64,000 nucleotides of DNA, from IMG/VR virus record IMGVR_UViG_3300025141_016022; one strand, written 5' to 3'. The notes below the pieces were generated by a model. That model was given only the letters and a program-made list of their open reading frames with translations, ran no database searches and had not been told where the DNA came from. A program made the position numbers and the translations under genes. This document shows, piece after piece, positions 26,390 through 50,102 of this stretch. The DNA is from a virus. Positions within the stretch are counted from its first letter, which is position 1. Each line of letters begins with the position of its first letter.

Positions 26390-26761
26390 ATGGAAGATAG
26401 ACTCTTAGAAATATTTAGGAGAAGAGAATCTTTTATGAAGAGCCTTGGTGATTCTTCCGGAGAATCTATGAACTGGCCACTTGATTTATCAAAAAAAGAA
26501 AATCAGCAACATGTCAGGGATATGGCACTAAGAGGTGTCGAAGAGATGTTTGAAGCACTTCAGCATTTAAAAAACTGGAAACCTCATCGGAAAACAGAAA
26601 TAACTGAATTTGATAGAGAAGAATTTCTTGAAGAGATTGTAGATGCATTTAATTATTTTCTATCGATTCTTGTCCTTACAGGATTTGATGATAATGATTT
26701 AATTGATGCATACAGAAGAAAAGACAAGATTATAAATGAAAGATTGAGGACTGGATATTGA
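26390..26761 (+). CDS. All-alpha NTP pyrophosphatase (dimeric dUTPase/dCTPase/MazG-like)
   Basis: EEMFEALQHLKNWKPH...EEIVDAFNYFL...YRRKDKIINER. Confidence 0.8.
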   Translation: MEDRLLEIFRRRESFMKSLGDSSGESMNWPLDLSKKENQQHVRDMALRGVEEMFEALQHLKNWKPHRKTEITEFDREEFLEEIVDAFNYFLSILVLTGFDDNDLIDAYRRKDKIINERLRTGY

Positions 26762-27669
26762 AAGTTAAAAAGCTATTTGAAGATCAGAATTATTTTTCAA
26801 AGATGATAGGTACTGTGTGTAACACATCAGAAGATCTTGATAACTTTACAAAAACCCTATCTCTTGCACTTCATAAAGAAGTAAGTGATCTTGTATCTGC
26901 TACTAACTATAGATCTCACACTGATGATAGTATGGTTCCAGATGCAGACAAGATACTTTTTGAATCAGTAGATGTAATTAGATATGCAGTAGCTATAATG
27001 AATGCGTGGAGCATAACTCCTGAAAAATTTCAAAAAGCATGGATACTAAAGGACAAGTATCTTTCACTTTCAAGAAAGATTGAAGGAAATACTTGGAAAG
27101 GGGAAAAAGTTGCAATTGTTGATATGGACGATGTTCTTTGTGAGTTTAGAGTAGGATTTTCAAATTGGCTAAATAAAAACTACAGCGTTATAACTGATGT
27201 AGAATCAAAAGAGTATTATTTTATTAATGCTCTTGAAAAAGCAGGTATAAACCCAGAGGGAATATTTTTAAAATTTGTATCTGAAGATGGATTCTCATCT
27301 TTAAAGCCAGCATCCGGTGCAATAGATTTTATTAAATCTCTTCAGGAGAAAGGTTATTTTATTCATATATTGACTGCAAGGCCAGGAGATAATCTAAGAT
27401 GTCTTTATAATACACTTGACTGGCTTGACTCAAACAATGTCTGCTTTGACAAGGTTAGCTTCTCATCAGAAAAACTGAGATGGTGCATGCAATCAGAATA
27501 CTGGTCATCAGGTGCAATAGAGTTTGCAATAGATGATTCACCTAAACATGCAGCAGAATATGCAAAACATGATATAAGAGTTCTTTTGCCAAGAAAGACT
27601 TATAATACAGAGGTTCAAAGTCTTTCAAATGTAATTGTCTATGATTCTTTCCTAGATATTGATATTTAA
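26758..27669 (+). CDS. Fusion of a dUTPase/MazG-like domain and a HAD 5'(3')-deoxyribonucleotidase
   Basis: N-terminal KEVSDL...FESVDVIRY; C-terminal DMDDVL, ILTAR, IDDSP. Confidence 0.72.
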   Translation: MKVKKLFEDQNYFSKMIGTVCNTSEDLDNFTKTLSLALHKEVSDLVSATNYRSHTDDSMVPDADKILFESVDVIRYAVAIMNAWSITPEKFQKAWILKDKYLSLSRKIEGNTWKGEKVAIVDMDDVLCEFRVGFSNWLNKNYSVITDVESKEYYFINALEKAGINPEGIFLKFVSEDGFSSLKPASGAIDFIKSLQEKGYFIHILTARPGDNLRCLYNTLDWLDSNNVCFDKVSFSSEKLRWCMQSEYWSSGAIEFAIDDSPKHAAEYAKHDIRVLLPRKTYNTEVQSLSNVIVYDSFLDIDI

Positions 27670-29272: not shown

Positions 29273-30259
29273 ATGCCAAAAAATAAAAACTTAGAACCAG
29301 TTACTTTTCCAATGAAGATTAGATTTGACGAGGATCCGAGCACTGAGTTTAAGAATGATCTTGAATCAATTAATATTTCACTACTAGACCATCCCGACCC
29401 GCTTAGGGCAAGAAGGATGGTGTACCAATTTATTAATGCAACATGGGAAGATGAGCCCGGTCTTCACAATCCAGACGATGTAGATGACTGGAAGCTTTTT
29501 CAAGCACTAGAAGCTGCGCTTCAGTTCAAAGCTTTGCCTACAGTCTTGGAGACGCTTGATTTTACATTTAGAATTGAAGGAATCGATGTCCAGACAGTTA
29601 CACATTTAATTCGGCATAGAACAGGATCTTTCTCTGCTCAGTGTACAGGAGACAGGTGGCAATCTCATGCAAATGCATTAGTTCCCGGTCCCATTCAGAA
29701 TAGTCCTGAGATTTATGAAAGATGGAAAAGTCTAGTTGTTGAGTCAAAGAAGCTTTATTGTGACATGATTGATACAAGGAAGATTTCGATTATGGATGCA
29801 CGAACAATTCTTCCAAAGTGTCTCGAGACACATTATTACGCACGCTTTAATATGAAAGATCTTCTAAACTTTATTAGACAAAGAATGGATAAGCAAATTC
29901 AGCCAACAACTGACAATATTATTGCATATCAGATGTACTTAGCCGTTGCAAGAATATTTCCAGAAGTTACAACAGTCGTGAATATGCACTCACCTTCGAG
30001 ACATTATGTTGCTACTGCAAGAACCGGAAAGGCAACAAATCTTTATTTTCCAGATAAAGATTCTGATTCGTTTGACTGGCACCCTAATGACTTTATCTAC
30101 TCAGCATATCGCGATGAAGTAAATGGTACAGACCCAGATCTCGGCGGAAGAGAAAACTTTAAATTTTCAGAATTGGCATCAATGTACGATAGACAGGTCA
30201 ATGACCTTGTAGAAAAGTACAATGAGTGGAAAGAAACTGTCGGATTTGAATCACCATAG
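29273..30259 (+). CDS. thyX: Flavin-dependent thymidylate synthase-like protein (divergent ThyX)
   Basis: VLETLDFTFRIEGI, HLIRHRTGSFSAQC, DARTILP, NMKDLLNFIRQR. Confidence 0.78.
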   Translation: MPKNKNLEPVTFPMKIRFDEDPSTEFKNDLESINISLLDHPDPLRARRMVYQFINATWEDEPGLHNPDDVDDWKLFQALEAALQFKALPTVLETLDFTFRIEGIDVQTVTHLIRHRTGSFSAQCTGDRWQSHANALVPGPIQNSPEIYERWKSLVVESKKLYCDMIDTRKISIMDARTILPKCLETHYYARFNMKDLLNFIRQRMDKQIQPTTDNIIAYQMYLAVARIFPEVTTVVNMHSPSRHYVATARTGKATNLYFPDKDSDSFDWHPNDFIYSAYRDEVNGTDPDLGGRENFKFSELASMYDRQVNDLVEKYNEWKETVGFESP

Positions 30260-31540: not shown

Positions 31541-31569
31541 TTAAAAACTACTTGCGACAAAGTTATAAT
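31541..31569 (+). promoter_or_regulatory. Candidate sigma70-type promoter TTAAAA-N17-TATAAT
   Basis: TTAAAA 31541-31546, TATAAT 31564-31569. Confidence 0.5.
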
Positions 31570-31599
31570 CATCTATACTATAAACAAGGAGAAATAGTA

Positions 31600-32104: not shown

Positions 32105-35100
32105 ATGTCATCTATTATTAAACCCAAGAAGTTTGTCGGTCTACATGCACATTCTGGAACAGGTAGTCCGTATGACGGTCTTGGATATCCAAACCAGCAT
32201 ATTGACTTTGTCTTGTCAAATGAAATGAATGCATGGGCACTGACTGATCACGGTAACGGTAACGGTCTTGCCCATGCACATGCTTATGCAAAGAAGCTAA
32301 AGAAGAAAGGTAGGGATTATCGACAGATTTATGGTGTTGAGTTTTACTTTGTACCTTCATTGCTTGAATGGCGTGAATCTTACGAAGCACATCGTGAAGA
32401 AGTTCGTGCAGCAAGGTCTGAAAAGAAGTTAAAAGAGTCAACAGATATTAACTCTGAAGATGAGATTTCTGGAGGTCTTATAATTGAAAATGAAGATGAG
32501 ACAAAAAATGATTTCGAGAAAAACGATTGGAAGAGGCGATATCACCTAGTTGTCATCGCAAAGAATCAAATTGGTCTACAGAATCTTTTCACTCTTGTCA
32601 AGAAGTCTTATACAGATGGTTTCTACAGATTCCCTAGAATTGATTACAATCTTCTCAAGATGCACGGTGAGGGTCTTGTAGTAAGTACAGCATGCATTGG
32701 TGGCTATCCCTCATCTTTAATTGCTAGAGGGGAGGCAACAGGCAAGTCTGATAGTGATATTATTCTAGATTTAGAAAACATGTCTGATAGATTTATTGAT
32801 GCCGTAGGCAGGAAAAACTTTAATCTAGAAGTTCAATTTAACTCTCTATCAATGCAACATAAAACCAATAAGCATCTTATTTCTCTACATGAGAAAACAG
32901 GTATACCGCTTGTCGCTACTGCTGATAGTCACTACTATGGTAGAAATATGTGGGAAGCACGAGAATTGTATAGAAAACTCGGCCGCATGGGTGCAAGAGG
33001 AGATGCAATGCCGTCACTTCCAGCTTTTGAAGACTTGAAGTGTGAGCTCTATCCCAAGAATGCTGAACAAATGTGGGATGAGTATAAACAGCATGCTTCA
33101 AGCTATGATTTCTACAAGGGTAAAGATCAGCTAATAGCTGATGCAATTGAAAGATCTTACGATATTGCATGGGAACAATGCGAAGATGTCTGGTTTGATG
33201 AGGAGGCAAAGCTTCCAAGATTTGGTACACCGACAGACTCAGCATTCAATCAGCTAGCACGAAGAGTTAAAGAGGCACTAGTTAAAGAAGACCTTCATAA
33301 AGATCAAGAATATGTTGATCGTGCAAAGATGGAGCTAGATGATATCAAGTATCTTGGATTTGAAAACTATTTCCTAACTATGACAAAGGTTTTTGACCTA
33401 GCATCACAAAGCACTATTATCGGCCCAGGTCGCGGCTCTGGCGCTGGATCACTAGTTAACTACTTGCTAGGAATTACAACAACAGACCCGATTAAATATG
33501 GGCTTCTATGGGAGAGATTTCTTCACAGGGCAAAGGCAGGATGGCCAGACATTGATACAGATGCTGGTGATAGAGATGTCCTGATCAATGCTTCAAGAGA
33601 ACTTTTCGGAGAAGAGTCTGTTGTTCCAGTTTCCAATTTTAATACACTTAAGCTTAAGTCCCTTGTTAAGGATGTTTCAAAGTTTTATGGTATTGACTTT
33701 GGCGAAGTTAACGCAATGACAAATACTTTAGAAAAAGATGTTATGCATAAAGCTATGGGTGATCATGAAGAAAGATCAACATATGTTCTTACACATGAAG
33801 ATTGTATGAAGTACTCGCAGAAGTATTCTGATTTTATGGATGAATACCCGAAGGTAAGTGAACATGTCCAGAATCTTTTTATGGAGTCTAGATCAATTGG
33901 TAGACATGCTGGGGGTGTTTTAATCTGCCCGAATCTCGAGAAGCATATGCCCGTTATTAAGGTAAGGGGCGAATTGCAAACACCATGGTCTGAAGGTATG
34001 AACTTTAGACATCTTGAAACAAACGGATTTCTTAAGTTTGATTTTCTCGGTCTAACAACACTTAAGATGGTCGAAGATTGTACAAGACTTATTCTTAGAA
34101 AGCAAGGCAATCTATCACCTACGTTTGCTGATATTCAAAAGTTCTTTGATGAAAAGATGAATTGTAGATATAATGATCTTGATGATCAAAATGTATGGGA
34201 GCATGTTTACCATAAGGGTCGGTTTGTACAGGTATTCCAGTTTACCCAGCAAGGCGCAAGAAACTTTTGCACTTCTGCAAAGCCAAGTACTATTGAAGAA
34301 TTAGCAACAATTACAGCAATCTATCGGCCAGGACCTCTTTCTGCTGGTGTTCATAGAAAGTACGTAAAAGCTAAGAAGTCAGTTGAGGATGGTAAACCTA
34401 TTGAGTATGATCACCCTGTTATCGAAGAGATTCTAAGCGAAACTTACGGCTTTATCTCGTTCCAAGAGCAGTTCATGCTCTTAGCACAGAAGCTAGCTAA
34501 TTTTGACAAGGGTGCATCAGATAAGATGCGTAAGACACTAGTTAAGAAATCACTCGATTCAAATGCTGCAAAGGTTCAAGAAAGAATTGACCTTCACAAG
34601 AAGTTTGTCAACGGTGCAGTTGAGATATCTGGGATGGATAAGGACAAGGCTGAGAAGCTCTATGAGACAATTGAATTCTTCTCTGGGTATGGCTTCAATA
34701 AGTCGCATGCAGTGTCCTACGCCATTGATTCCTATTACTCTGCATGGCTTCACACATACTATGAAAAAGAATGGCTTGCAACATGCTTGCAAACACAAAA
34801 TGGCTCTAGTAAGTTTGGAAAGGTCATCTCTGAGATTAAATCACTAGGATATACAATTTTACCGCCTGACATCAACGCCTCTTCTGATGTCTGGGTTTAC
34901 AGTGATGAGAGGGGAGGCTTTGTCCCACCTCTAACAGCAATCAAGGGTGTTGGCGACGCTGCCGTTGCAGAGATTATGGAAAGGAGACCATTCTCCAGTC
35001 TTGATGAGATGATGTTTACTGAGGATGGCAAGTGGCGACCATCAAAGATGAACAAGACATGTTTTAGCTCACTTTCTTTGGTCGAGGCTTTTGGAAGCCT

Positions 35101-35662
35101 AGATGAGTTCAAAACTGGAAAGGTACTAAATCACAGACAACTTTACACTGTTATCATTGACAACTATGACCTCCTTAAGAAGGGCAGACATGGAATGACA
35201 AAGACTGCTGTTAAGAAATTGTTAAAGGAACAGGACTACATTCCAAACTTTATCGATATCAAGCTTAACGAGGTTGATGGAATGCCTGACTGGAATCGTG
35301 CAGAGAAGATTGGAAACAGTGTTGAATTAATGGCAAGTGCAGATGAGACTCTTGTATTCCCGCCAAGAATTATGGCAAAGATTGAAAAGGCAGATGTTCG
35401 CCCAGTCACTGCACTCTCGGGAAAAGAAAGAGATATTGTCTGGTTCTGTATTCAAACAATGGAAGAGAGAACAACAAAGAACAACAAGAAGTTCTATCGG
35501 ATGAAGGTCATGGATAATAACTCTGAGAGCTGCTGGCTCCGTGTCTGGGGTAGGTTTGATGATCCCCCTGACCTATATACCATGTGGCTGGCTGAAGTAG
35601 CTTCTACAGAGTCCTGGGGTTGTTCTACATCATCATATAAGATGAAGAAGCTAGAGGTTTAG
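32105..35662 (+). CDS. dnaE: DNA polymerase III alpha subunit (family C)
   Basis: PHP domain LHAHS, LTDHG, GVE, ADSHY; GPGRGSGAGSL; PDIDTD; GRHAGG; LKFDFLGL; YRPGP; YGFNKSHA. Confidence 0.96.
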   Translation: MSSIIKPKKFVGLHAHSGTGSPYDGLGYPNQHIDFVLSNEMNAWALTDHGNGNGLAHAHAYAKKLKKKGRDYRQIYGVEFYFVPSLLEWRESYEAHREEVRAARSEKKLKESTDINSEDEISGGLIIENEDETKNDFEKNDWKRRYHLVVIAKNQIGLQNLFTLVKKSYTDGFYRFPRIDYNLLKMHGEGLVVSTACIGGYPSSLIARGEATGKSDSDIILDLENMSDRFIDAVGRKNFNLEVQFNSLSMQHKTNKHLISLHEKTGIPLVATADSHYYGRNMWEARELYRKLGRMGARGDAMPSLPAFEDLKCELYPKNAEQMWDEYKQHASSYDFYKGKDQLIADAIERSYDIAWEQCEDVWFDEEAKLPRFGTPTDSAFNQLARRVKEALVKEDLHKDQEYVDRAKMELDDIKYLGFENYFLTMTKVFDLASQSTIIGPGRGSGAGSLVNYLLGITTTDPIKYGLLWERFLHRAKAGWPDIDTDAGDRDVLINASRELFGEESVVPVSNFNTLKLKSLVKDVSKFYGIDFGEVNAMTNTLEKDVMHKAMGDHEERSTYVLTHEDCMKYSQKYSDFMDEYPKVSEHVQNLFMESRSIGRHAGGVLICPNLEKHMPVIKVRGELQTPWSEGMNFRHLETNGFLKFDFLGLTTLKMVEDCTRLILRKQGNLSPTFADIQKFFDEKMNCRYNDLDDQNVWEHVYHKGRFVQVFQFTQQGARNFCTSAKPSTIEELATITAIYRPGPLSAGVHRKYVKAKKSVEDGKPIEYDHPVIEEILSETYGFISFQEQFMLLAQKLANFDKGASDKMRKTLVKKSLDSNAAKVQERIDLHKKFVNGAVEISGMDKDKAEKLYETIEFFSGYGFNKSHAVSYAIDSYYSAWLHTYYEKEWLATCLQTQNGSSKFGKVISEIKSLGYTILPPDINASSDVWVYSDERGGFVPPLTAIKGVGDAAVAEIMERRPFSSLDEMMFTEDGKWRPSKMNKTCFSSLSLVEAFGSLDEFKTGKVLNHRQLYTVIIDNYDLLKKGRHGMTKTAVKKLLKEQDYIPNFIDIKLNEVDGMPDWNRAEKIGNSVELMASADETLVFPPRIMAKIEKADVRPVTALSGKERDIVWFCIQTMEERTTKNNKKFYRMKVMDNNSESCWLRVWGRFDDPPDLYTMWLAEVASTESWGCSTSSYKMKKLEV

Positions 35663-37025: not shown

Positions 37026-37065
37026 AACAATTATTAAGAATAATTATATTAAGAGCAAAGTTATT

Positions 37066-37998: not shown

Positions 37999-37999
37999 A

Positions 38000-40900: not shown

Positions 40901-41077
40901 GGATGGGTAGGAAGTGCAGAAAATATCGTAGATCAAAAGATTGATGACGTTCTTTTCGAACCTGGCGGATTATGGGACTGGGCTAGAAAGGAAGCAGGAA
41001 TAAACGTTGAGTACATTGACATGCAGGAGTCAGTTGTATATGTGTCTCGGTGGATGAAACTTGCAGGTATAACTTAA
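38000..41077 (+). CDS. Leader-bearing multidomain protein (1025 aa) with hydrophobic hairpin and zincin-like domain
   Basis: MKITESRIRRIIREE; hydrophobic LIALLVL...IALAAGLV; LSHELGHW...ELDAE; C-terminal RWMKLAGIT. Confidence 0.75.
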   Translation: MKITESRIRRIIREELLKEDSEDTVLGKMSWPMAPGVSDPFGELRSSNPPPVLSTSMWYDLDGDAMLSSHKIESKKFIEHLMDTIEHRGGVANSVANAGHIAAVYKEMGVETRIAPYPGPKHWGAGDYESWGEFPGSARSFFKKYDPWVLDADEIFLVTVDNTSYRAPGQKVTEIEPEDMEMGVEYGGTTDPAAGKIKRALSSLLGDLTLPAHYDPSPVQLTAAKSWLSQWLPGGNPSPEMARAMAATNPYNAVWETFLGPIKECLSGQAAAKEEATRRASKQDDFYSREGADITFAGGATSEDTQAVLKQMQKTGEAEKISDESIGTSSAGLCASARASELIALLVLPSGQFTLAGRIALAAGLVHLARGSHREAMFELLLGAFEIVAATKAIVRYTAVVKSALRSGKLPADDILEEMIKAGVFEEHADIIRRLARQPKMEEEVQAMRQEMARVIETMDSTDPLKPYLDAYVRGASSDELRGIYKAAKAEIESGARWDIHTSTRRAADIDPDELDAWLERLEDLPLTSSPGSRKAVIDKYIESQISINRALEAEQATARGAGRGKSTPENPWGKGPEPKAIRPAGSKAPLAQTANMGRQIIDLAYAKLRSIPDGKIYKIAKFERGHFSDVDRIEIRLDGLFDVDDIEKIVDDSLGDYLNTLTPPQASRYKQDVIEEIQNLDFVVGPRTPDRVGQYVQSGPGQRGQVWVEPFDKEEWKAIVGTNRDRPDFEEAVKKAFIDALDSGTKFDLPEQVRNTLSHELGHWIDLTIEGNKYDHLIVDSNGIPMREIDGKQMTFDQAVKERKVKTIEEWLQDPPDIFGDFVTQPWHGRIGELDAEITRGVTDFQDSLEASIKRIRDLDDQYKLPWDISPRKPPRDQQPVASDSPSAWDRRSTTKHPSQTTRRQEPKKWDDAETKSAMHKEEMAEIGLDELDYTYQILTDKDLFRDIFVGDYFPIEPNRGYLDDYGWVGSAENIVDQKIDDVLFEPGGLWDWARKEAGINVEYIDMQESVVYVSRWMKLAGIT

Positions 41078-41078
41078 A

Positions 41079-43934
41079 ATGAAAATAACAGAGTCAAAAA
41101 TAAGAGAGATTATAAGAGAAGAAGTAGAGTTTGTCTTCTCTGAGGCTATAGATCAATCTAAACTTTCACCTATTTCTATGGGAGGAAAAGAGAAGAAGCC
41201 TGCTCGCAATCGAGAGGATGAGGAGGGGGGTGCTCCGATAACCACTACAGGAGACGAAAGCGACGAAGAAAGTGAAGGGGAGCCCGAGGAATCATTTAAA
41301 GATGCATTTAACAGGGCGCGTGAAGAAGGAAGGGATACGTTTGAGTATGATGGTGATGGAGACGGCAAGGCAGAGACATATCACACTAAGCATCCAGAAG
41401 AAATGTCCCAAGGGCCAGGCAAAGCCCCGGTCACTGAGCCCCCAAGAACTGATCATGATTTTAGTGCTCAGCCTACTGACCTTAGTAAGCCAGAAGATGT
41501 TGTCTACGCAGATCAGCATGCAAAAGGAGGTGATAGTCAACTTATTCTACACAATGACCGAAAGAAAAGACATGGCGGTCTGTGCTTTATATTCAATCCA
41601 GTTTATGAAGATACCGGAGAAGAGGCACAGACTCGAAATCCGCTTGACTTTGAGCCAATAGCATATATAGATGGCAAACCAGCTAAAGAGCGCCCCAAGA
41701 CTCTTGCTGGTGGCAAGTGGACAATGTCAGAAATGTGGTGGTTTGAAATATCAACTGGAAGGAGGGTAGTATCAAATCCGAAATGCAATGAAGTTACACC
41801 AGGGTGGGAGAGTACAGTTATTAATTGGGAGGAATGGGATCGAGATGAGCACAATGCTCTTATGGACAAGCTAGACTTGGTACTGCTCAGTATTGCAATA
41901 TTTGTTGGAGGATCTACTTATGGTATTGGAGATATTCTTACTGATACTGCATCTGCTGGATTAATGCTCCTAAAAGATCCTCCTGATTATGTTTCTGCCG
42001 GGATTATCTTAGGTGTTACTGCAACTATTGTCGGAAATGGTCAGATTGCTAACAGATTAAGAAAAGCCGGCGGTGCGGGTGCCCGTGTTGTAGATGATGC
42101 GCTTTCTGAGGGAACATCCATAGGTAGCAAAGAGTTCAGCGATGCTATTTCAGATCATGTTTCACCTGAAGATATCACAGCTGGTAGAAAATCTGCGCAA
42201 GAGTATTTAGATAAATCTACAGATACAATTTATCTTCACATAAGAGATAGAGTCCCACCAGCCCGAGCAAGTGAAGCACGTGAAGTAGTTGATAGTGCTA
42301 AGAAAAGAGCAATGCAAGAAACAAACAGACTGTCACCTCAGCGCACCTCTCCTGGATCAGTAGGAACGCCAGTTGTTAAACAGACAACTACAGCTACAAT
42401 CTCAAAAAAGATTGATGAACCGGCGAAGTTATCTTACTATCAAAGTCCCGAAATGTCCAAAGAGTTTGGAGCTGATATAACTGACTTTGTACGGGATTGG
42501 GATGGGAAGCTTCCCCTTTCTGCAGAAGGCACAGTCTTTCTTGCAAAATCTCGAATCTGGCCTACAGATGTAGCAATTAAGATTATAGATAAGCCTGGCG
42601 GTGTTGCTGATGCTGGTGTCTTATCCTCACCTGCCTGGATTCTTAGAAATAGAGATAAGCTACCATCTGATCTTGCTGAATCACTTCCTCGCGTCTATAA
42701 GATCGGAAGCACAGTAGGACCAGACGGGAAAGCATATGACTATATTGTGATGGAGAAATTAGTTTCCGGACCAGCAAAAGATACTATAGGAAATATTAAT
42801 ACGCAACTTAATCCTGGTATTATTGATCATTACTATGTCGGACGCGGATCTGAAATGGCACCTGATATTATGAAGAACCCGGATCAATTACATAGCTTTG
42901 CAAAGAGATATGATGCAGGATTTAAATCTCAACAAGATATCCTCAAGCTTTATGATCCACGACATCCAATTAGGGCAGGAGAAAATTTAGGAAAATCAGT
43001 CACACCGGAAACTGATGCTGTCATTAGTAGAATAAAGAGCGATAGATTTTCTCAAGAGTTCGCATCAGATGTGATAAAATATACTGGAGACACAAGTAGA
43101 ATCACTGGGCCAGTTAAACAACGTCTGGATAATGTAGACTGGAAAAGCGATGACATATACGGATTTGCTGGGGGATACAGCTTAAGCACGACTGAGATAA
43201 ACATGCTTAAATCAATTTCTGCAGCTAGAGTAAATAAACTAGACAATGTTATCTCACATCTTCAACAAGCAAGAAGAAATCCTGATCTTATTCCTACAAT
43301 GACAAAAGATGAAATTTCTAGATCACTAGCAATTGTTAAGAGTGAAAGAAAGAAAGTAATACAAGACATTGGAGATACATCTTATCACGCACGAGAAGCA
43401 GAACGCATGGAGTATGCTCTCGATTATAATCCGGCAATTACTCGAGATTATGTATCTACAAGAAAAGCAGCTGATAGTGATACCTTTGTCGGACGACAGA
43501 GCAAAAGAAGCGGTGATATCATAGATATTAAAGCAGCAGATGCTCCTTTTGATCCTGATCTCGACCCTGTGGTTGCACGTGCAGAATATATTGACAAAGA
43601 ACTGGCAAGGAGAGGTTTTTTTAGAGTAGATGTTAGGGACCCTAATAAGATGTTTAGAGCAGATGTCCAATCCCCGAACCCAGTTCAAGCCGATATTACT
43701 CTCAACTATGTCTTACAACCAGGTCAAAAAATAATGTATAAAGGAGAGCCAATGACAATAGTTGATCCTAGCACTCCCTTAGACAGGACTTTAGAAATGC
43801 CGAAACTGGATCCTACTCTAAGACCAAATCCGCAGTTTGACGAAGAAGATATTATCAAAGGGACAAAATATAACCCGCTTGAAGAAGGAATAGACTTAGA
43901 TAGGTGGCTTTTGATTGCTGGGATTTTAGAATAA
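41079..43934 (+). CDS. Leader-bearing multidomain protein (951 aa) with hydrophobic hairpin and protein-kinase-like domain
   Basis: MKITESKIREIIREE; hydrophobic LVLLSIAIFVGG...AGIILGV; VAIKII, LPRVYKIG, YIVMEKL, DVRDPN; C-terminal RWLLIAGILE. Confidence 0.7.
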   Translation: MKITESKIREIIREEVEFVFSEAIDQSKLSPISMGGKEKKPARNREDEEGGAPITTTGDESDEESEGEPEESFKDAFNRAREEGRDTFEYDGDGDGKAETYHTKHPEEMSQGPGKAPVTEPPRTDHDFSAQPTDLSKPEDVVYADQHAKGGDSQLILHNDRKKRHGGLCFIFNPVYEDTGEEAQTRNPLDFEPIAYIDGKPAKERPKTLAGGKWTMSEMWWFEISTGRRVVSNPKCNEVTPGWESTVINWEEWDRDEHNALMDKLDLVLLSIAIFVGGSTYGIGDILTDTASAGLMLLKDPPDYVSAGIILGVTATIVGNGQIANRLRKAGGAGARVVDDALSEGTSIGSKEFSDAISDHVSPEDITAGRKSAQEYLDKSTDTIYLHIRDRVPPARASEAREVVDSAKKRAMQETNRLSPQRTSPGSVGTPVVKQTTTATISKKIDEPAKLSYYQSPEMSKEFGADITDFVRDWDGKLPLSAEGTVFLAKSRIWPTDVAIKIIDKPGGVADAGVLSSPAWILRNRDKLPSDLAESLPRVYKIGSTVGPDGKAYDYIVMEKLVSGPAKDTIGNINTQLNPGIIDHYYVGRGSEMAPDIMKNPDQLHSFAKRYDAGFKSQQDILKLYDPRHPIRAGENLGKSVTPETDAVISRIKSDRFSQEFASDVIKYTGDTSRITGPVKQRLDNVDWKSDDIYGFAGGYSLSTTEINMLKSISAARVNKLDNVISHLQQARRNPDLIPTMTKDEISRSLAIVKSERKKVIQDIGDTSYHAREAERMEYALDYNPAITRDYVSTRKAADSDTFVGRQSKRSGDIIDIKAADAPFDPDLDPVVARAEYIDKELARRGFFRVDVRDPNKMFRADVQSPNPVQADITLNYVLQPGQKIMYKGEPMTIVDPSTPLDRTLEMPKLDPTLRPNPQFDEEDIIKGTKYNPLEEGIDLDRWLLIAGILE

Positions 43935-43999: not shown

Positions 44000-44028
44000 T
44001 TAAAAATTTAAATTTTTCATGTTATAAT
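44000..44028 (+). promoter_or_regulatory. Sigma70-type promoter TTAAAA-N17-TATAAT with extended -10
   Basis: TTAAAA 44000-44005, TG 44020-44021, TATAAT 44023-44028. Confidence 0.6.
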
Positions 44029-44031
44029 AAC

Positions 44032-44940
44032 ATGATGCTAATATTTCCAACAAAAAATCTATTTATTGAAGGTCCTGATTGTTCCGGTAAGACAACTCTT
44101 GTCAGCAATATTCATAAATTAACAAGATATAAATGGCATATTCACGACAGATCTCAGGTATCTAGAAAGATTTTTCAAAAGATGTATGATAGAAATCTTC
44201 CATATCTATGCGATGATTTTCATACAGAGCTTTTTAATCTTAATAATAGATTTATTTTTCTACTACCTCCGTTTAAAATAATATCAGAAAGATTTGATGA
44301 AAGGGGCGATGATATTCATAGAAATATTGATGAGATTAAAAATGTCTATAGTAATTTTGAAAAAGAGTTTTCATTGATTTCAAGACTCCCGAATATTCTT
44401 CCCGTTCTCGGAGTTGCAACACCAAGAGCTGTTGAAGCACTCTGTACAACAATCTCGCTAACAGAAAGATCAATGCTTAGAGAAGTTTCAGATCAAGTTT
44501 TAACAACTGTTAGTCACTGTAAAGGAGAATGCTTTCCTTTACAGTTTACACTTTACGATGATGGAAAGTTTGAAGAGGCAAATAAAGAATCTATGGACCA
44601 TGATCCTGAAAAGGAGTATTATGAAAAAATATATCGAAGACTTCACTGCAAGATCGATAATGAGATATTGGGAAAAAATGAATACAGTAGAGTTGAATCA
44701 TCTTCTTCTAGGAGATTTATTTACACCGACGATAGTTGTATATCATTTATTCAATTGTCAATAAGAAAAAGAGTAATGGACTTTCATGTAGTAATAAGAT
44801 CATCAGATGTTAAAAATGTTTTTCCATATGATTTAAAGTTTTTATACTATCTTGCTTCTACATGTTATAAAAAATTTGAAGAGAGCTGTGATTCAGCGAG
44901 ACTTCGTTTTAACTTAAACTCTGCACACATAGTTAGTTAA
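44032..44940 (+). CDS. dNMP (thymidylate-type) kinase fused to a minimal thymidylate-synthase-fold domain; candidate dCMP-modifying enzyme
   Basis: N-terminal FIEGPDCSGKTT, IHDRS, ERGDD; C-terminal SRRFI, SCISFIQL, RSSDVKNVFPYD, SAHI. Confidence 0.75.
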   Translation: MMLIFPTKNLFIEGPDCSGKTTLVSNIHKLTRYKWHIHDRSQVSRKIFQKMYDRNLPYLCDDFHTELFNLNNRFIFLLPPFKIISERFDERGDDIHRNIDEIKNVYSNFEKEFSLISRLPNILPVLGVATPRAVEALCTTISLTERSMLREVSDQVLTTVSHCKGECFPLQFTLYDDGKFEEANKESMDHDPEKEYYEKIYRRLHCKIDNEILGKNEYSRVESSSSRRFIYTDDSCISFIQLSIRKRVMDFHVVIRSSDVKNVFPYDLKFLYYLASTCYKKFEESCDSARLRFNLNSAHIVS

Positions 44941-44966: not shown

Positions 44967-45983
44967 ATGAATGTATTGATTACAGGCGGTTGCGGCTTTA
45001 TCGGATCAAATCTAGCAAAGCATCTTGTTAAGCTAGGATGGACAGTTGATGTCGTAGACAATATGTCAGGAGGAGATATTCAGTCTCTCGTAGGGGAGAA
45101 AATACGACATCTTCCAAACGGATCTTTTCTCCCGCACTTCTACCAAAGTATTAAGGAGAAGAATATAGCAAGAAATCAAGAGGAAATACTTGTAATACCT
45201 GATGATCTTATTTCTGATGGGGTTCTTTTATCCATTAAAAATAAACAGTATGATATTGTTTTCCATCAGGCAGCAGTTCCTAGAGTTTCATATTCTGTTG
45301 AGAATCCAGGGGAGACAACTTATGAAAATATTTCAAAAACTGTTACCTTGTTTGAAGCATGCGCTGACAATGTTGATAGGGTTGTATGGGCGTCTTCTTC
45401 ATCTGTTTACGGAGGGGCTTTAAATCTTCCAACAGTAGAAGAAGAAAGGGGAAAAATTATTCCCAAATCACCGTATGCATGGCAAAAATTTGCAGTAGAA
45501 GATTATGCTAAAATTTGTGCAGATCTCTATGACCTTGATATTGTATGTCTAAGATATTTTAATGTCTTTGGTCCGGGCCAGCTTGGAGATTCTCCATATG
45601 CGACTGCGGTTTCTGCATGGTGCTATGCAACTAAAAACGGTCTTGCCCTTAGAAGTGATGGCGATGGTGAACAGACAAGAGATATGTGCTACATAGACAA
45701 TGTAGTCCAGGCAAATATTTTAGCAGCCACAGCTTCAAGACCAGAGGGGTTTAGAGGAAGGTGCTATAATATTGCTTGTGGGGGTTCTGTTTCTAATAAT
45801 GAAATACTAGAGCTCTTCAGCAAAAGATTTGATATTACCATAAAGCATGCTCATGAAAGACCTGGAGATGTTAAACATACCTTGGCAGATATAAGCAGGG
45901 CAACATCTGAGCTTGGCTATGATCCAAAAGTTTTATTTTGGGAAGGTTTGAATAGAACTCTAGAGTGGTGGGGTCTTGAATAA
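44967..45983 (+). CDS. NAD-dependent nucleotide-sugar epimerase/dehydratase
   Basis: ITGGCGFIGS, HQAA, ASSSSVYG, SPYAWQK (YxxxK), LRYFNVFGP, GDGEQTRD, RPGDV. Confidence 0.92.
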   Translation: MNVLITGGCGFIGSNLAKHLVKLGWTVDVVDNMSGGDIQSLVGEKIRHLPNGSFLPHFYQSIKEKNIARNQEEILVIPDDLISDGVLLSIKNKQYDIVFHQAAVPRVSYSVENPGETTYENISKTVTLFEACADNVDRVVWASSSSVYGGALNLPTVEEERGKIIPKSPYAWQKFAVEDYAKICADLYDLDIVCLRYFNVFGPGQLGDSPYATAVSAWCYATKNGLALRSDGDGEQTRDMCYIDNVVQANILAATASRPEGFRGRCYNIACGGSVSNNEILELFSKRFDITIKHAHERPGDVKHTLADISRATSELGYDPKVLFWEGLNRTLEWWGLE

Positions 45984-46405
45984 TGTACGTAGATAAAAAG
46001 CATGCAAAGTCTGCATGGATTTCTTCTAGTGCAACAACTGAGGAAAAGCCCTGGGGCTTTGAAACAAGATGGTCTGGGTTTAGTGGAATTCACGGAAAGA
46101 CACTATTCATTAGAAAAGGTGGCAGAACAAGCTTAAAGTATAACACTGCAAAGACAGAAGTCTTAATGTTAAGATCAGGCTCTGCAGAAGCTTTGTTTGG
46201 AGATGAGCTTTCACTAAATGATCCTATAGGGCATCCTATGAAAAAAGAAAAAATGTTATCTGGAGATACTCTATTAATACAATCTATGTGCCCATATAGA
46301 ATTACTGCTCTTGAAGATTGTGAAATATTTGAAATAGGCGACAATGCATCAGACAAAGTAGTAAGGCTAGAGGACGATTACGGGAGGGCTGAAAATAATG
46401 AATAG
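45983..46405 (+). CDS. Cupin-fold protein (mannose-6-phosphate isomerase type II C-terminal-like)
   Basis: EKPWG, RTSLKY...KTE, DKVVRLEDDYGR. Confidence 0.75.
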   Translation: MYVDKKHAKSAWISSSATTEEKPWGFETRWSGFSGIHGKTLFIRKGGRTSLKYNTAKTEVLMLRSGSAEALFGDELSLNDPIGHPMKKEKMLSGDTLLIQSMCPYRITALEDCEIFEIGDNASDKVVRLEDDYGRAENNE

Positions 46406-46967
46406 AATGCCTGAGTTTATAATATTTACAGGACCAATGTTTGGAGCAAAGACTAGTCGATTGCTTTCAGTTATAGATAGATTCTCTTATCAAAATCGAA
46501 GAGTTCTTTCTTTCAAACCTAAAATAGATAGAAGATATTCTGATTCTGACATTACAACACATAACGGTCATGCAGTTGAGGCAATTTCAGTTAAAACAGG
46601 TAGTGATATATATAATGTGGTGTGCGACAGAATAGCAGATGTTGATGTTATTGCTGTAGATGAGGCATTTATGATAGATGGATGTGCAGAATCTCTAGTT
46701 TCTTTATTCAGGATGGGAAAAACAATTGTTGTTTCATCACTTCAACTTTCTGCTTCGGGAAATGTTTTTACAGAAATTAGAGATATGATGCCTTGGGCTA
46801 CTAAAATTGAAGTATGCCCAGCAGTTTGTACTGTGAGTGGTCTTGATGCATACTATACACATAAGAAAGTTGATAGCCTTGCTGAAATTACTGTCGGGGG
46901 ATCAGAGCTTTATGAGCCAAGAGCTTGGATGCATCACTCTTTTATGAACCAAAGCCCTAAAGATTGA
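46398..46967 (+). CDS. tdk: Thymidine kinase
   Basis: TGPMFGAKTSRL, KPKIDRRY, IAVDEAF, AVC, VGGSELYEP. Confidence 0.9.
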   Translation: MNRMPEFIIFTGPMFGAKTSRLLSVIDRFSYQNRRVLSFKPKIDRRYSDSDITTHNGHAVEAISVKTGSDIYNVVCDRIADVDVIAVDEAFMIDGCAESLVSLFRMGKTIVVSSLQLSASGNVFTEIRDMMPWATKIEVCPAVCTVSGLDAYYTHKKVDSLAEITVGGSELYEPRAWMHHSFMNQSPKD

Positions 46968-48681: not shown

Positions 48682-49095
48682 ATGTCTAGGCCTACATGGG
48701 ATAAAATATGGATGGAGTTTGCACATTCTATATCTAAGAGATCATATGATCCAAGATATAGAGTTGGAGCGGTAATTATAACTAATGATAATACTCAGGT
48801 ACTGTCTGTAGGCTATAATGGAAATTATGCTGGCGGTCCTAACGAAGTAGAGTCAGAAACACCAGGCAAGTCTGGTATGCTGCATGCTGAAATTAATGCT
48901 CTTCTTAAAATGGACTATAACAATCCTAAGGATAAAAAATTATATCTTACACTGTCTCCATGCAGAATGTGTGCAAAAGCAATAGTCAATTCTGGAATAT
49001 CTGAAGTTTTTTATTCTGAAGTGTATAGAGATGATTCATCTTTTAAAATACTAGATGATGCTAAAATAAAACATAAGCTAATTGATTTCAAGTAA
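48682..49095 (+). CDS. dCMP deaminase
   Basis: VGAVI, GYNG, HAEINAL, LSPCRMC. Confidence 0.9.
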   Translation: MSRPTWDKIWMEFAHSISKRSYDPRYRVGAVIITNDNTQVLSVGYNGNYAGGPNEVESETPGKSGMLHAEINALLKMDYNNPKDKKLYLTLSPCRMCAKAIVNSGISEVFYSEVYRDDSSFKILDDAKIKHKLIDFK

Positions 49096-49113: not shown

Positions 49114-49401
49114 ATGCACACATTAAATTCAAAATCTATTGACGACCTTGTTTCTTTTATTCTAGAAAATATTACTATGTCTGGGAAAGATGGTAGAATT
49201 CTTATAAAACCAGGTTTAAAATTGACACATATAGGAAATAAAAAAATACAAGGTTCAGGCCTGAACTATACGGTGACTAAGTTAGTGAATCGTGATAATG
49301 GTCTTTTGGTTAAATGTAAAAGACACGGATCATCGCCCGATAACGACGTGAATCTTTTTTTAACAATTGATGAACTAGAACAACAGTTTGAGAGAACATA
49401 A
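49114..49401 (+). CDS. Hypothetical protein
   Basis: ORF preceded by AATAATTA; coupled to the next gene. Confidence 0.65.
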   Translation: MHTLNSKSIDDLVSFILENITMSGKDGRILIKPGLKLTHIGNKKIQGSGLNYTVTKLVNRDNGLLVKCKRHGSSPDNDVNLFLTIDELEQQFERT

Positions 49402-50102
49402 TGACAATAGATAAGAAAAAACTACTAGCACAAATTAGAAGTGATCTAAAGATAGAAGGGACACTTGATGAATCAATTGTCGCTATTCCAAAAAAATTTA
49501 GACTAGCTACAGAATTGCTAAGCAATGCTAATAAAGAAAATCATGTTGAACTATATGATCAATATGTTAAAGATTTTAATCAGATAAGCGCAGAGTTAGA
49601 TGCTGTAAGCAGAGAAAATGTTAGCTCGAACGGATCTATATATAGACAGCTTAAGATAGACGAGGTTTACAATTTAAACTCAGTATACTTACATGAGCTT
49701 TATTTTAATAATATAAGTGATTTACATAGTCAAATTAAAATGGATTCAATTTCTTATATGAGACTATCTAGAGATTTTGGAACTTTTGATGCGTGGCAAC
49801 AAGACTTTATAGCATGCTGTATGGCCTCTAGGTGCGGATGGGCAGTAACATATTATAATATGTATACCCAGTCTTATATGAATTGTGTCGTTGATCTTCA
49901 CTCTTTAAATGTTCCATTTGGTGCATATCCAGTTATAGTAATGGATGTATGGCAGCATGCATACTATAGAGATTATCTCAAAGATGTTAAGTCATATGTA
50001 TACGGAATGATGAAGCAACTTAACTGGCCAGCCATAGAAAAGAGATTTAATAAGGCTGACGAAATATCAAATGTTCTTGGTGGAGGATTCAAACATGTCT
50101 AG
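49401..50102 (+). CDS. sod: Fe/Mn superoxide dismutase-like protein
   Basis: NHVELYDQYV, LHELYF, RDFGTFDAW, CGWAV, MDVWQHAYYRDY; the four metal ligands H,H,D,H are identifiable. Confidence 0.85.
   Translation: MTIDKKKLLAQIRSDLKIEGTLDESIVAIPKKFRLATELLSNANKENHVELYDQYVKDFNQISAELDAVSRENVSSNGSIYRQLKIDEVYNLNSVYLHELYFNNISDLHSQIKMDSISYMRLSRDFGTFDAWQQDFIACCMASRCGWAVTYYNMYTQSYMNCVVDLHSLNVPFGAYPVIVMDVWQHAYYRDYLKDVKSYVYGMMKQLNWPAIEKRFNKADEISNVLGGGFKHV

What the first reader, a model, noticed from the sequence alone, without database searches (positions are those of the whole stretch)
44032..44940. dNMP kinase fused to a stripped-down thymidylate synthase with the dCMP-specificity Asp: candidate cytosine-modification enzyme
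Seen: a P-loop kinase (GPDCSGKT, DRS) joined to a short domain with SRR, SC, IQL, RSSDVKNVFPYD and SAH. Established: E. coli ThyA reads RSCDVFLGLPFN, where Asn177 selects dUMP, and T4 dCMP hydroxymethylase has Asp at that position. Here the aligned residue is Asp. The loop between RR and the catalytic Cys is much shorter than in ThyA, and the N-terminal folate-contacting part seems missing. The genome has a separate ThyX, so this domain is not needed for dTMP. Inference: a bifunctional enzyme that modifies dCMP at C5, possibly without folate, and phosphorylates the product.
Basis: partly seen in the sequence, partly recalled or inferred. Interest (0 to 1): 0.82.

Follow-up and report, generated by a model that had tools for sequence, protein, structure and literature searches.

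The report
Kinase fused to minimal thymidylate-synthase-like enzyme
An uncultured marine phage, like hundreds of relatives, encodes right after its DNA polymerase a protein joining a small nucleotide kinase to a 155-residue thymidylate-synthase-like enzyme built for cytosine nucleotides, so it probably makes an altered cytosine for its DNA, but the chemistry is not known.

Summary
ORF 44032-44940 (+, 302 aa) has two domains. Residues 1-146 form a P-loop kinase of the YorR/dNK/TMPK type. Residues 147-302 form a cut-down thymidylate synthase (TS) fold.

The TS-like domain keeps Cys236 (ThyA C146), Arg227/228 (R126/R127), Arg256-Ser257 (R166/S167), His299 (H207) and Asp267 at the Asn177 specificity position. 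It lacks ThyA 66-90 (W80, W83), 98-123 and everything after residue 210.

The nearest solved relatives are cytosine-nucleotide enzymes: phage HY126 dCMP hydroxylase AfhB, T4 dCMP hydroxymethylase and MilA.

The fusion is conserved down to 29% identity in 79 IMG/VR loci, always behind dnaE and usually with thymidine kinase, dCMP deaminase and ThyX. A homodimer with cross-subunit Arg-Arg contacts is predicted.

- Split forms exist, with kinase and mini-TS as adjacent genes.
- Standalone mini-TS genes often sit beside a second, full-size Asp-type TS homologue, so the domain may not be the primary dCMP modifier.

The published D169N marker of 5-hydroxy-dCMP synthases varies (N/D/E) among orthologues and is Asp here.

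The most likely function is C5 chemistry on dCMP coupled to phosphorylation. The product and cofactor are unknown, and DNA modification is unproven.

This scan has found and followed up the same family on other genomes (e1-5335440, e1-5410215, e1-5388500, e1-5325676, e1-5335431).

The parts
44032..44940 (+). Whole ORF, 302 aa: kinase plus minimal TS-fold fusion. Relatives begin ML.FPT, so the real start may be the second ATG at 44035.
44032..44469 (+). N-terminal P-loop nucleotide kinase domain (aa 1-146), YorR/dNK/TMPK-like
   Evidence: VIA Z 13.1 to YorR 3kb2, 12.8 to M. mycoides dAK, about 11 to TMPKs. Profile hit to YorR at E 9e-6. phrog_761 'thymidylate kinase' at 3e-8.
44068..44094 (+). 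P-loop EGPDCSGKT. E13, G14, D16, G19 and K20 are invariant.
44146..44154 (+). DRS motif. D39 and R40 are invariant.
44290..44310 (+). Lid-like RFDERGD. R87, G92 and D93 are invariant and R91 is 98% conserved. It aligns with YorR RLRVRGDE.
44470..44937 (+). C-terminal minimal thymidylate-synthase-fold domain (aa 147-302)
44608..44622 (+). EKEYY. E193 is invariant and Y197 is kept in fused and standalone forms. It is proposed to correspond to ThyA E58-L-L-W-F and T4 gp42 E60-L-E-W-Y. This rests on motif reading; hhalign is not confident in this stretch.
   Evidence: low-confidence region
44662..44685 (+). EILGKNEY. Y218 aligns with ThyA Y94.
   Evidence: conservation
44707..44715 (+). SRR, equivalent to ThyA S125-R126-R127. 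In the predicted dimer it touches R256, S257 and S297 of the other subunit.
44737..44739 (+). Cys236, equivalent to the ThyA C146 and T4 gp42 C148 nucleophile. Conserved in 77 of 77 sequences.
44764..44766 (+). Arg245, 98% conserved. Shared with the 'IRD' of T4 gp42 and RB69 gp48/AfhB; ThyA has Ala155 here.
44797..44808 (+). RSSD, equivalent to ThyA R166-S167-C168-D169. The last position is Asp here but N 37, D 28, E 11 among orthologues.
44830..44832 (+). Asp267, at the position of ThyA N177 and T4 gp42 D179 (base specificity). Conserved in 76 of 77 sequences.
44926..44928 (+). His299, equivalent to ThyA H207. The protein ends 3 residues later.
32105..35662 (+). DnaE-type DNA polymerase. It lies upstream of the fusion in 79 of 79 related loci. 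In this window four unrelated large genes are inserted between them.
29273..30259 (+). ThyX (flavin-dependent thymidylate synthase)
46398..46967 (+). Thymidine kinase. Present in 66 of 79 related loci.
48682..49095 (+). dCMP deaminase. Present in 67 of 79 related loci.
44967..45983 (+). NDP-sugar 4-epimerase/dehydratase-type SDR directly downstream. Present in 52 of 79 loci, so it is not an obligatory partner.
26390..27669 (+). All-alpha NTP pyrophosphatase (26390-26761), followed by a dUTPase_2-like domain fused to a HAD/NT5C 5'-deoxynucleotidase (26758-27669). Homologues accompany mini-TS and kinase in other phage lineages.

Best explanation
The protein is a homodimeric, two-activity nucleotide enzyme.

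The C-terminal 155-residue TS-fold domain binds a cytosine deoxynucleoside 5'-monophosphate. The phosphate is held by Arg256, Ser257 and Arg227'/228' of the partner subunit. His299 contacts the 3'-OH, and Asp267 reads N3/N4. Cys236 adds to C6, which makes C5 reactive so that a substituent is installed or exchanged there.

The folate-clamping parts of ThyA are deleted, so the chemistry is probably not classical methylene-folate transfer. The nearest solved relative is the flavin/O2-dependent dCMP 5-hydroxylase AfhB.

The N-terminal kinase then phosphorylates the dNMP to the diphosphate, feeding the adjacent DnaE replicase. The phage DNA would then carry a modified cytosine.

Shown here: the fold, the residue conservation, the predicted dimer, the fusion and split gene architecture, and the genomic context. 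Inferred: the substrate, catalysis, the product, the kinase specificity and the DNA modification.
For: Fold and register:
- AF2 pLDDT 95.3.
- Foldseek top hits are AfhB 9iqu/9iqc and T4 dCH, probability 1.00.
- VIA Z 12.2 to MilA, 11.4 to AfhB and 11.0 to L. casei TS for aa 147-302.
- The domain profile against PDB finds only T4 dCH (2.9e-4) and AfhB (6e-3), and no ThyA.
- hhalign gives 96.6%, E 6e-10, placing C236=C146, R227/228=R126/127, R256/S257=R166/167, D267=N177, H299=H207 and Y218=Y94.

Conservation: all these residues, and the P-loop, DR and lid residues, are 97-100% conserved in 77 distinct sequences down to 29% identity.

Shared derived features with cytosine-type TS homologues: R245 ('IRD') and E166 ('TIEIIG'/'CNEIGS').

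Dimer:
- Score 0.89 against a best control of 0.12.
- The mark was reached by 20 of 30 proteins solved as pairs of one chain and by 1 of 23 solved as single chains.
- Runs agree in at least 98% of contacts, and partner pLDDT is at least 90.
- Contacts include 227/228 with 256/257/297 of the other chain.
- TS dimers are solved, so this pass shows likeness to them and may come from memory.

Functional link of the two halves: the kinase and mini-TS occur as adjacent, overlapping genes in L087, L098 and L099 and within two genes of each other in L096. The kinase HMM scores about 1e-15 (8e-16 to 1.3e-15 between runs).

Context: it mirrors the T4 modified-dC toolkit, with NTP pyrophosphatase, dCMP deaminase, a thymidylate synthase (ThyX) and a kinase. 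In published work (PMC13326640) Asp-type TS homologues with a dNMP kinase suffice to put 5hodC into DNA.

Folate site: ThyA 66-90 (W80, W83) and 211-264 are absent. The flavin-dependent RB69 gp48 has also lost those Trp residues.
Against: - No assay or DNA chemistry exists for any member.
- The published D169N marker of 5hodCMP synthases is Asp in this protein and varies N/D/E among orthologues in the same gene context. So the marker either does not apply or the family is not uniform.
- Standalone mini-TS genes sit beside a second, canonical-size Asp-type TS homologue in L087, L096, L097, L098 and L099. That would make a primary dCMP-modifying role redundant there.
- No flavoprotein partner is present in this lineage.
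- Five large relatives have no other TMPK, so the kinase may simply serve dTMP.
- No DNA glycosyltransferase was recognised in the window.
- The sugar epimerase next door is missing in 27 of 79 loci.
Confidence: 0.5

Rival explanations
1. Housekeeping kinase with an accessory TS-like module. The N-terminal half is the phage's thymidylate or general dNMP kinase, completing the TK, dCMP deaminase and ThyX route to dTTP. The TS-like half binds dCMP as a sensor, a regulator, a dimerisation scaffold or a pool-depleting enzyme. No modified base ends up in DNA.
For: - No PF02223 hit above cut-off and no ThyA-family gene in five large relatives, one of them 100% complete.
- The fusion always sits in a thymidine-centred operon with TK, dCMP deaminase and ThyX.
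- The P-loop has the EG-x-D-x-x-GK spacing typical of TMPKs (own knowledge applied).
- JGI and PHROG labels say 'thymidylate kinase'.
- The kinase domains contribute to the predicted dimer interface.
Against: - Pseudo-enzymes and sensors usually lose the nucleophile. Here Cys236 and the Glu, Tyr, Arg, Ser, Asp and His set are 97-100% conserved across 29% identity and in standalone forms.
- The mini-TS also exists as a separate gene, so it is not merely a scaffold for the kinase.
Confidence: 0.2
2. Second-step or salvage enzyme. The mini-TS acts on an already C5-substituted cytosine nucleotide, for example 5-hydroxymethyl- or 5-hydroxy-dCMP. Cys addition at C6 lets it exchange, remove or elaborate the substituent without folate, and the kinase handles the result.
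For: - In L097 the order is kinase, then a T4 gp42-like dCH that keeps W, Y, D171 and D179, then mini-TS.
- In L087, L098 and L099 the order is dUTPase_2, short Asp-type TS, ThyX, FAD-Rossmann protein, HAD, kinase, mini-TS, dCMP deaminase. L096 is similar.
- The open, cofactor-site-less architecture suits a cofactor-independent reaction.
Against: - The window's lineage has no other ThyA-family enzyme to make the first substituent.
- No precedent is known for such a mononucleotide enzyme.
- The argument rests on gene neighbourhood only.
Confidence: 0.15
3. Classical folate-dependent dCMP hydroxymethylase or methylase in miniature. The domain still uses methylene-tetrahydrofolate, as T4 gp42 or XP12-type dCMP methylases do.
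For: - The best sequence-profile hit in PDB is T4 dCH.
- The D169-equivalent is Asp in this protein, as in folate users.
- E193, Y218 and H299 are compatible with the TS proton-relay set.
Against: - The segments carrying W80/W83 and the C-terminal lid are deleted.
- Positions equivalent to L172 and F176 are not conserved, and D169 varies N/D/E among orthologues.
Confidence: 0.1

Closest known systems
5-hydroxy-dCMP synthases / dCMP hydroxylases of the TS superfamily (phage HY126 AfhB, PDB 9iqu/9iqc; RB69 gp48; DLP3 gp80), which work with a separate phage dNMP kinase (PMC13326640)
   Same: - TS fold, Cys nucleophile, Asp at the N177 position, an acidic residue three positions before the Cys, and the 'IRD' Arg after the Cys strand.
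- Loss of the folate-clamping Trp residues.
- It is the best Foldseek hit.
- It needs a dNMP kinase to reach DNA.
   Different: - The domain here has 155 residues, against 217-238.
- The RR-to-Cys loop has 8 residues, against about 22.
- There is nothing after the His.
- It is fused to the kinase.
- The diagnostic D169N is Asp here and varies among orthologues.
- No flavin evidence exists.
T4 gp42 dCMP hydroxymethylase with gp1 dNMP kinase (PDB 1b5d, 6a9a)
   Same: - Best sequence-profile hit.
- C148, R168-S169, D171, D179 and H216 align with C236, R256-S257, D259, D267 and H299.
- Same pathway logic of a dCMP modifier followed by a kinase, alongside a dCTPase-like enzyme, dCMP deaminase and a TS.
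   Different: - gp42 has 246 residues, binds tetrahydrofolate and keeps the Trp/Tyr wall.
- Its kinase is a separate, unrelated-size protein (gp1).
- Pfam PF00303 does not recognise the present domain.
Full-size thymidylate kinase / thymidylate synthase fusion proteins of phages (ESM Atlas cluster, 437 aa, PF00303 100% and PF02223 39%)
   Same: Kinase at the N-terminus and TS fold at the C-terminus in one polypeptide, found in Uroviricota.
   Different: - Those carry a complete, Pfam-recognisable TS domain.
- TM-score to this model is only 0.44.
- Their base specificity was not examined here.
Bacillus prophage SPbeta YorR (PDB 2axp/3kb2), an uncharacterised minimal dNK/TMPK-like kinase
   Same: - Best structural and sequence match of the kinase half: Z 13.1 and E 9e-6, with a shared EGPDC P-loop, DR and RxRGD(E) lid.
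- From my own knowledge, it is also encoded near a DnaE-type polymerase in its phage.
   Different: YorR is a single-domain protein of unknown substrate.
MilA CMP hydroxymethylase (PDB 5b6e/5jnh)
   Same: Highest VIA Z for the TS-like half (12.2, 142 residues aligned). It is a cytosine-nucleotide-specific TS homologue with Asp at the N177 position (PMC13326640).
   Different: MilA has 318 residues, is folate-dependent, acts on the ribonucleotide and belongs to an antibiotic pathway.

Membership tests
Thymidylate synthase superfamily (ThyA/dCH fold) | Alpha/beta TS fold | tested here: met
   Foldseek probability 1.00 to many TS, dCH and AfhB chains. VIA Z 11-12.2 with 141-145 residues aligned for aa 147-302. 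hhalign 96.6%.
Thymidylate synthase superfamily (ThyA/dCH fold) | Catalytic Cys followed 20 residues later by Arg-Ser, an Arg-Arg pair before it, and His near the end of the core | tested here: met
   C236, R256-S257, R227-R228 and H299 are 98-100% conserved.
Thymidylate synthase superfamily (ThyA/dCH fold) | Obligate homodimer with Arg-Arg donated to the partner's active site | tested here: met
   This is a prediction only. Score 0.89 against a best control of 0.12. The mark was reached by 20 of 30 solved one-chain pairs and 1 of 23 single chains. Contacts are 227/228 with 256/257/297'. The result may reflect memory of solved TS dimers.
Thymidylate synthase superfamily (ThyA/dCH fold) | Recognised by the curated family model PF00303 | tested here: not met
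   No PF00303 hit even at E 10. Only phrog_160 at E 0.0018.
Folate-dependent TS / dCMP hydroxymethylase (ThyA, T4 gp42) | Folate-contacting elements: the W80/W83 segment, conserved D169, L172 and F176, and the C-terminal lid | tested here: not met
   ThyA 66-90 and 211-264 have no counterpart. Position 259 is N/D/E, and positions 262-266 are variable.
Cytosine-nucleotide-specific TS homologues | Asp at the position of ThyA N177 | tested here: met
   D267 in 76 of 77 sequences. It aligns with T4 gp42 D179.
5hodCMP synthase (AfhB / RB69 gp48 type) | D169N signature (PMC13326640) | tested here: not met
   This protein has Asp259. Orthologues have N 37, D 28 and E 11.
5hodCMP synthase (AfhB / RB69 gp48 type) | Acidic residue at the ThyA L143 position | tested here: inconclusive
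   D233 here. The family has D 42, S 12, N 7, Q 7 and G 4. The register is uncertain because the loop is 11 residues shorter.
5hodCMP synthase (AfhB / RB69 gp48 type) | Flavin cofactor and O2-dependent hydroxylation of dCMP | not testable with these tools
   This needs a purified protein spectrum and an 18O2 / LC-MS assay.
TMPK / dNK-type P-loop nucleotide kinases | P-loop, DR motif, Arg-rich lid and the kinase fold | tested here: met
   G14, D16, G19, K20, D39, R40, R87 and G92-D93 are invariant and R91 is 98% conserved. Z 11-13 to YorR, dAK, TMPK, GMPK and dCK.
Thymidylate kinase (PF02223) | Score above the curated cut-off | tested here: not met
   13.8 bits against a cut-off of 27, and only the P-loop is matched.
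Thymidylate kinase / dNMP kinase | Phosphorylates a dNMP (which one?) | not testable with these tools
   Structural neighbours include both nucleoside and nucleotide kinases at equal Z.

The most novel reading that the evidence does not exclude
[quoted passage not shown] It performs folate-independent C5 chemistry on cytosine mononucleotides. This could be O2-dependent hydroxylation with a diffusible reduced flavin or pterin, or exchange of an existing C5 substituent through the Cys-C6 adduct. Fused or paired with its own kinase, it would give a widespread clade of marine jumbo phages a so far undescribed modified cytosine in their DNA.
Probability: 0.3. Interest if true: 0.85.

Novelty: new variant of a known kind. 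Interest (0 to 1): 0.66.

Why it matters
TS-superfamily enzymes are the entry points of nearly all known phage pyrimidine hypermodifications. Each new branch has revealed a new DNA base: 5hmC, 5hmU, 5mC and, in 2025-26, 5hoC.

This branch has these properties:
- It is the smallest TS fold seen so far, at about 155 residues.
- It has no recognisable folate site.
- It escapes Pfam.
- It is absent from cultured phages.
- It is abundant in marine metagenomes: 447 clusters at 50% identity and more than 130 IMG/VR loci.

If active, it would mark a large uncultured jumbo-phage group as carrying non-canonical cytosine. That would affect restriction and CRISPR evasion and sequencing bias in viromes, and it could supply a compact enzyme for making modified dNTPs.

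If it is not a modifier, it is still an unexplained, strictly conserved partner of the phage's only TMPK-like kinase.

Tried and rejected
Searches that found nothing or could not run:
- tblastn of the fusion and of standalone mini-TS proteins against 50,697 cultured phage records found no true homologue.
- Pfam and NCBIfam give no TS hit.
- A search for longer fused forms (547 aa or more) found none. The tool rates this as weak evidence.
- No whole genome is held for the window.
- The He et al. AfhB paper is not in the library, so flavin-site residues could not be compared.
- Literature searches for a described kinase plus mini-TS fusion found nothing.

Ideas tested and dropped:
- The D169N marker cannot be used to call the product, because it varies N/D/E among orthologues.
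- The adjacent sugar epimerase and cupin are not obligatory partners. The epimerase is missing from 27 of 79 loci, including most of the divergent clade L067-L086, where TK usually follows directly.
- The FAD-Rossmann protein lies next to or two genes from standalone mini-TS genes but has no homologue in the window or in fusion-bearing loci.
- Palindrome and restriction-site avoidance in the 64-kb window shows only mild deviations (GATC 0.84, GGCC 0.75, CTAG 1.21). This says nothing either way about modification.
- The ThyX looked 'odd' because it falls below the NCBIfam cut-off and has Cys in place of the Ser of the RHR-x7-S motif. It keeps the RHR and ARxxLP motifs, so it was not pursued as a partner enzyme.
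Full report
**1. The observation**

The ORF listing gives one ORF at 44032-44940 on the plus strand, 302 aa.

E. coli ThyA and T4 gp42 were fetched from annotated records and read RSCDVFLGLPFN and RSNDVVFGFRND. Cys236 to Arg256 spans 20 residues, as from C146 to R166. Asp267 falls on Asn177 of ThyA and Asp179 of gp42. The Arg-Arg to Cys distance is 8 residues, against 19 in ThyA.

**2. What the protein is**

Curated libraries barely see it. Pfam gives only sub-threshold P-loop hits. PHROGs gives 'thymidylate kinase' for the N-terminus (3e-8) and a weak 'thymidylate synthase' for aa 236-300 (0.0018). NCBIfam gives nothing.

A model built on 39 homologues is very confident, with pLDDT 95.3 and pTM 0.91. 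Foldseek against PDB ranks phage HY126 dCMP hydroxylase AfhB (9iqu, 9iqc) first. It then lists T4 dCMP hydroxymethylase and a long run of ThyA structures and MilA, all at probability 1.00.

VIA-align splits the model into two domains:
- aa 5-147 match YorR of prophage SPbeta (Z 13.1), Mycoplasma deoxyadenosine kinase (12.8) and thymidylate, guanylate and deoxycytidine kinases (about 11).
- aa 147-302 match MilA (Z 12.2, 142 aligned), AfhB (11.4) and L. casei TS residues 1-262 (11.0).

A profile of the C-terminal domain alone (75 sequences, A2) finds only T4 dCH (2.9e-4) and AfhB (6e-3) in PDB. It aligns globally to four TS-family sequences with 96.6% probability, E 6e-10.

That alignment keeps the following:
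- the first helix and the first strand;
- the Tyr94 loop, as Y218;
- Ser-Arg-Arg, the Cys strand, Arg-Ser-x-Asp, the specificity position and His207.

It has no counterpart for ThyA 66-90 (W80, W83), 98-123 or 211-264. By motif, the invariant E193-x-x-Y-Y looks like E58-L-L-W-F of ThyA and E60-L-E-W-Y of gp42, but hhalign is not confident in that stretch.

Two further conserved residues are shared with gp42 and RB69 gp48 but not with ThyA. These are Arg245 (the 'IRD' motif) and Glu166 (the 'TIEIIG' / 'CNEIGS' motif). This places the domain on the cytosine-nucleotide side of the superfamily.

**3. Conservation and distribution**

The word-index search found 443 proteins of about 300 aa in marine and other metagenomes, on contigs up to 280 kb, almost all unnamed.

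IMG/VR yielded 79 distinct loci with the full-length fusion, from 80% down to 29% identity. In 77 distinct sequences the conserved positions are as follows:
- Kinase half: G14, D16, G19, K20, D39, R40, R87, G92 and D93.
- TS-like half: E193, R227, R228, C236, R245, R256, S257, D267 and H299.

All of these are 97-100% conserved.

The exhaustive profile search with the TS-like domain alone gave 447 clusters at E 1e-3 or better and 179 at 1e-10 or better. None of the cultured phages in INPHARED has it. ESM Atlas clusters of the same architecture are all viral and labelled 'hypothetical'.

**4. Context**

The window is part of a large uncultured phage. It encodes DnaE, DnaB, RecA, gp32-like SSB, FEN, class II RNR, ClpP and a peptidoglycan amidase.

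In all 79 loci dnaE lies upstream of the fusion. Other genes within 10 kb are:
- dCMP deaminase: 67 loci
- thymidine kinase: 66 loci
- an SOD-like gene: 55 loci
- the NDP-sugar epimerase: 52 loci
- a DHH phosphoesterase: 49 loci
- ThyX: 38 loci

The epimerase is missing from most of the divergent clade, so it is not an obligatory partner.

The window also has an all-alpha NTP pyrophosphatase, a dUTPase_2-like domain fused to a HAD/NT5C nucleotidase, and a nucleoside deoxyribosyltransferase-like gene.

Five large relatives, one judged complete at 284 kb, have no ThyA-family gene and no thymidylate kinase above cut-off.

**5. Points I did not see in the retrieved summaries of earlier follow-ups**

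(a) Standalone and split forms. The profile search recovered complete standalone mini-TS proteins of 165-200 aa. They keep the same invariant set, and many retain the His-x-Tyr of ThyA H207/Y209. In L087, L098 and L099 the gene just upstream, overlapping the mini-TS start, is a 155-162 aa kinase homologous to the fusion's N-terminal half (HMM E about 1e-15). L096, L097 and L088 have such a kinase within a few genes. So the fusion is a Rosetta-stone version of a conserved gene pair. A FastTree of the domain puts all fused forms in one clade, sister to the standalone forms and apart from canonical TS homologues (support values were not examined).

(b) A recurrent cassette. Those other phages carry the order dUTPase_2, a short (214-248 aa) Asp-type TS homologue, ThyX, an FAD-Rossmann protein, a HAD nucleotidase, the kinase, the mini-TS and dCMP deaminase. 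In L097 the order is kinase, a gp42-like dCH and then mini-TS, followed by sugar-activation-type genes. A second cytosine-type TS homologue beside the mini-TS argues that the mini-TS does something different from, or additional to, the primary C5 modification in those phages.

(c) The D169N marker. This is the published marker of 5-hydroxy-dCMP synthases (PMC13326640). In this family the position is N in 37, D in 28 and E in 11 orthologues within the same gene context, and it is Asp here. The marker cannot be used to name the product.

(d) The predicted homodimer. The score is 0.89 against a best control of 0.12. The mark was reached by 20 of 30 proteins solved as one-chain pairs and by 1 of 23 solved as single chains. 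Runs agree in at least 98% of contacts, and pLDDT is at least 90. R227/R228 of one chain touch R256/S257/S297 of the other, as in ThyA, and the kinase domains also touch. TS dimers are solved, so this shows likeness and may come from memory.

**6. Mechanism**

The conserved set is what a TS-family enzyme needs to hold a pyrimidine 5'-mononucleotide, add Cys to C6 and run proton transfers at C5. Asp at the specificity position is the hallmark of every known cytosine-nucleotide member: gp42, MilA and the 5hodCMP synthases (PMC13326640).

The parts that clamp the p-aminobenzoyl-glutamate tail and close over folate are gone. The positions that contact the pterin are not conserved. A classical methylene-folate reaction is therefore unlikely.

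My best reading (0.5) is C5 chemistry on dCMP coupled to phosphorylation by the fused kinase, with AfhB-like oxygen chemistry as the leading guess for the reaction.

The rivals are:
- a housekeeping TMPK with an accessory dCMP-binding module (0.2);
- a second-step or salvage enzyme acting on already substituted dCMP (0.15);
- a miniature folate-dependent hydroxymethylase or methylase (0.1).

Nothing here shows catalysis, the product or modified DNA.

**7. Comparison and novelty**

It works like the gp42/gp1 and gp48/gp159 pairs. It is not a member of Pfam's Thymidylat_synt family as curated, and it fails the folate-site and D169N tests.

Full-size kinase-TS fusions exist in phages (earlier finding e1-1067945). 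The minimal domain, its standalone form and its cassette are not described in any paper I could find.

The scan has met this family before on other genomes and reached the same reading. That is not independent evidence. I rate it a new variant of a known kind.

Noticed in passing
L087:3485-8980, L099:3535-9058, L098:4039-8471, L096:4832-9074: A recurrent cassette in unrelated uncultured phages. Its order is dUTPase_2, a short Asp-type TS homologue (214-248 aa), ThyX, an unannotated FAD-Rossmann protein (about 300-336 aa, amine-oxidase-like by Atlas features), a HAD nucleotidase, a minimal kinase, the mini-TS and dCMP deaminase. It looks like a compact pyrimidine-modification operon with two TS-fold enzymes.
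   Followed up: partly
L097:2583-7737: Gene order: kinase, a T4 gp42-like dCMP hydroxymethylase (221 aa), mini-TS, a HAD plus APH-like kinase (336 aa, HGDxxxxN motif), a cytidylyltransferase-like protein, a 299-aa unknown and an NDP-sugar epimerase. This is a candidate hydroxymethyl-C hypermodification cluster.
   Followed up: partly
window 26390-27669: Two adjacent nucleotide-pool genes. The first is a 123-aa all-alpha NTP pyrophosphatase. The second is a 303-aa protein joining a dUTPase_2-like N-terminus to a HAD/NT5C 5'-deoxynucleotidase. It could act as a dCTPase/dUTPase analogue of T4 gp56, but the nucleotidase fusion is unusual.
   Followed up: partly
window 29273-30259: The ThyX is 328 aa, with long N- and C-terminal extensions. 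It scores below the NCBIfam thyX cut-off (56.6 against 87.9 bits). It has Cys where the RHR-x7-Ser motif has Ser, and it keeps RHR and ARxxLP.
   Followed up: partly
window 31552-32040: A nucleoside 2-deoxyribosyltransferase-family protein (PF05014, 5e-16) lies directly upstream of dnaE. Relatives place it right after ThyX. Members of this family (MilB, DNPH1) hydrolyse C5-modified pyrimidine nucleotides.
   Followed up: no
window 54671-55060 and 49401-50102: A pterin-4a-carbinolamine dehydratase and an Fe/Mn-SOD-like protein are conserved downstream in the same gene array, within 10 kb in 22 and 55 of 79 loci respectively. Both would fit oxygen/pterin or flavin chemistry, but no link was tested.
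   Followed up: no
window 44000-44035: A sigma-70-like promoter match (TTAAAA, 17-nt spacer, TG-TATAAT; 10 of 12) ends 3 nt before the first ATG. There is no Shine-Dalgarno sequence, so the transcript may be leaderless and start at the second ATG. Promoter-like matches are no more frequent here than in shuffles (8 against 6.9).
   Followed up: no
window 35694-43934: Between dnaE and the fusion this phage has four large genes without Pfam hits (443, 342, 1025 and 951 aa). In most relatives the fusion follows dnaE directly, by 3-100 nt. This looks like an insertion hotspot.
   Followed up: no
window 9663-10847: A 394-aa ORF matches only the C-terminal part of family A DNA polymerase (PF00476 positions 112-371), in a genome that also has DnaE.
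   Followed up: no
window 45983-46405: A 140-aa cupin-like protein (phrog_7851 'cysteine dioxygenase', 6e-12) lies between the epimerase and thymidine kinase. It was detected by tblastn in 25 of 79 loci.
   Followed up: no
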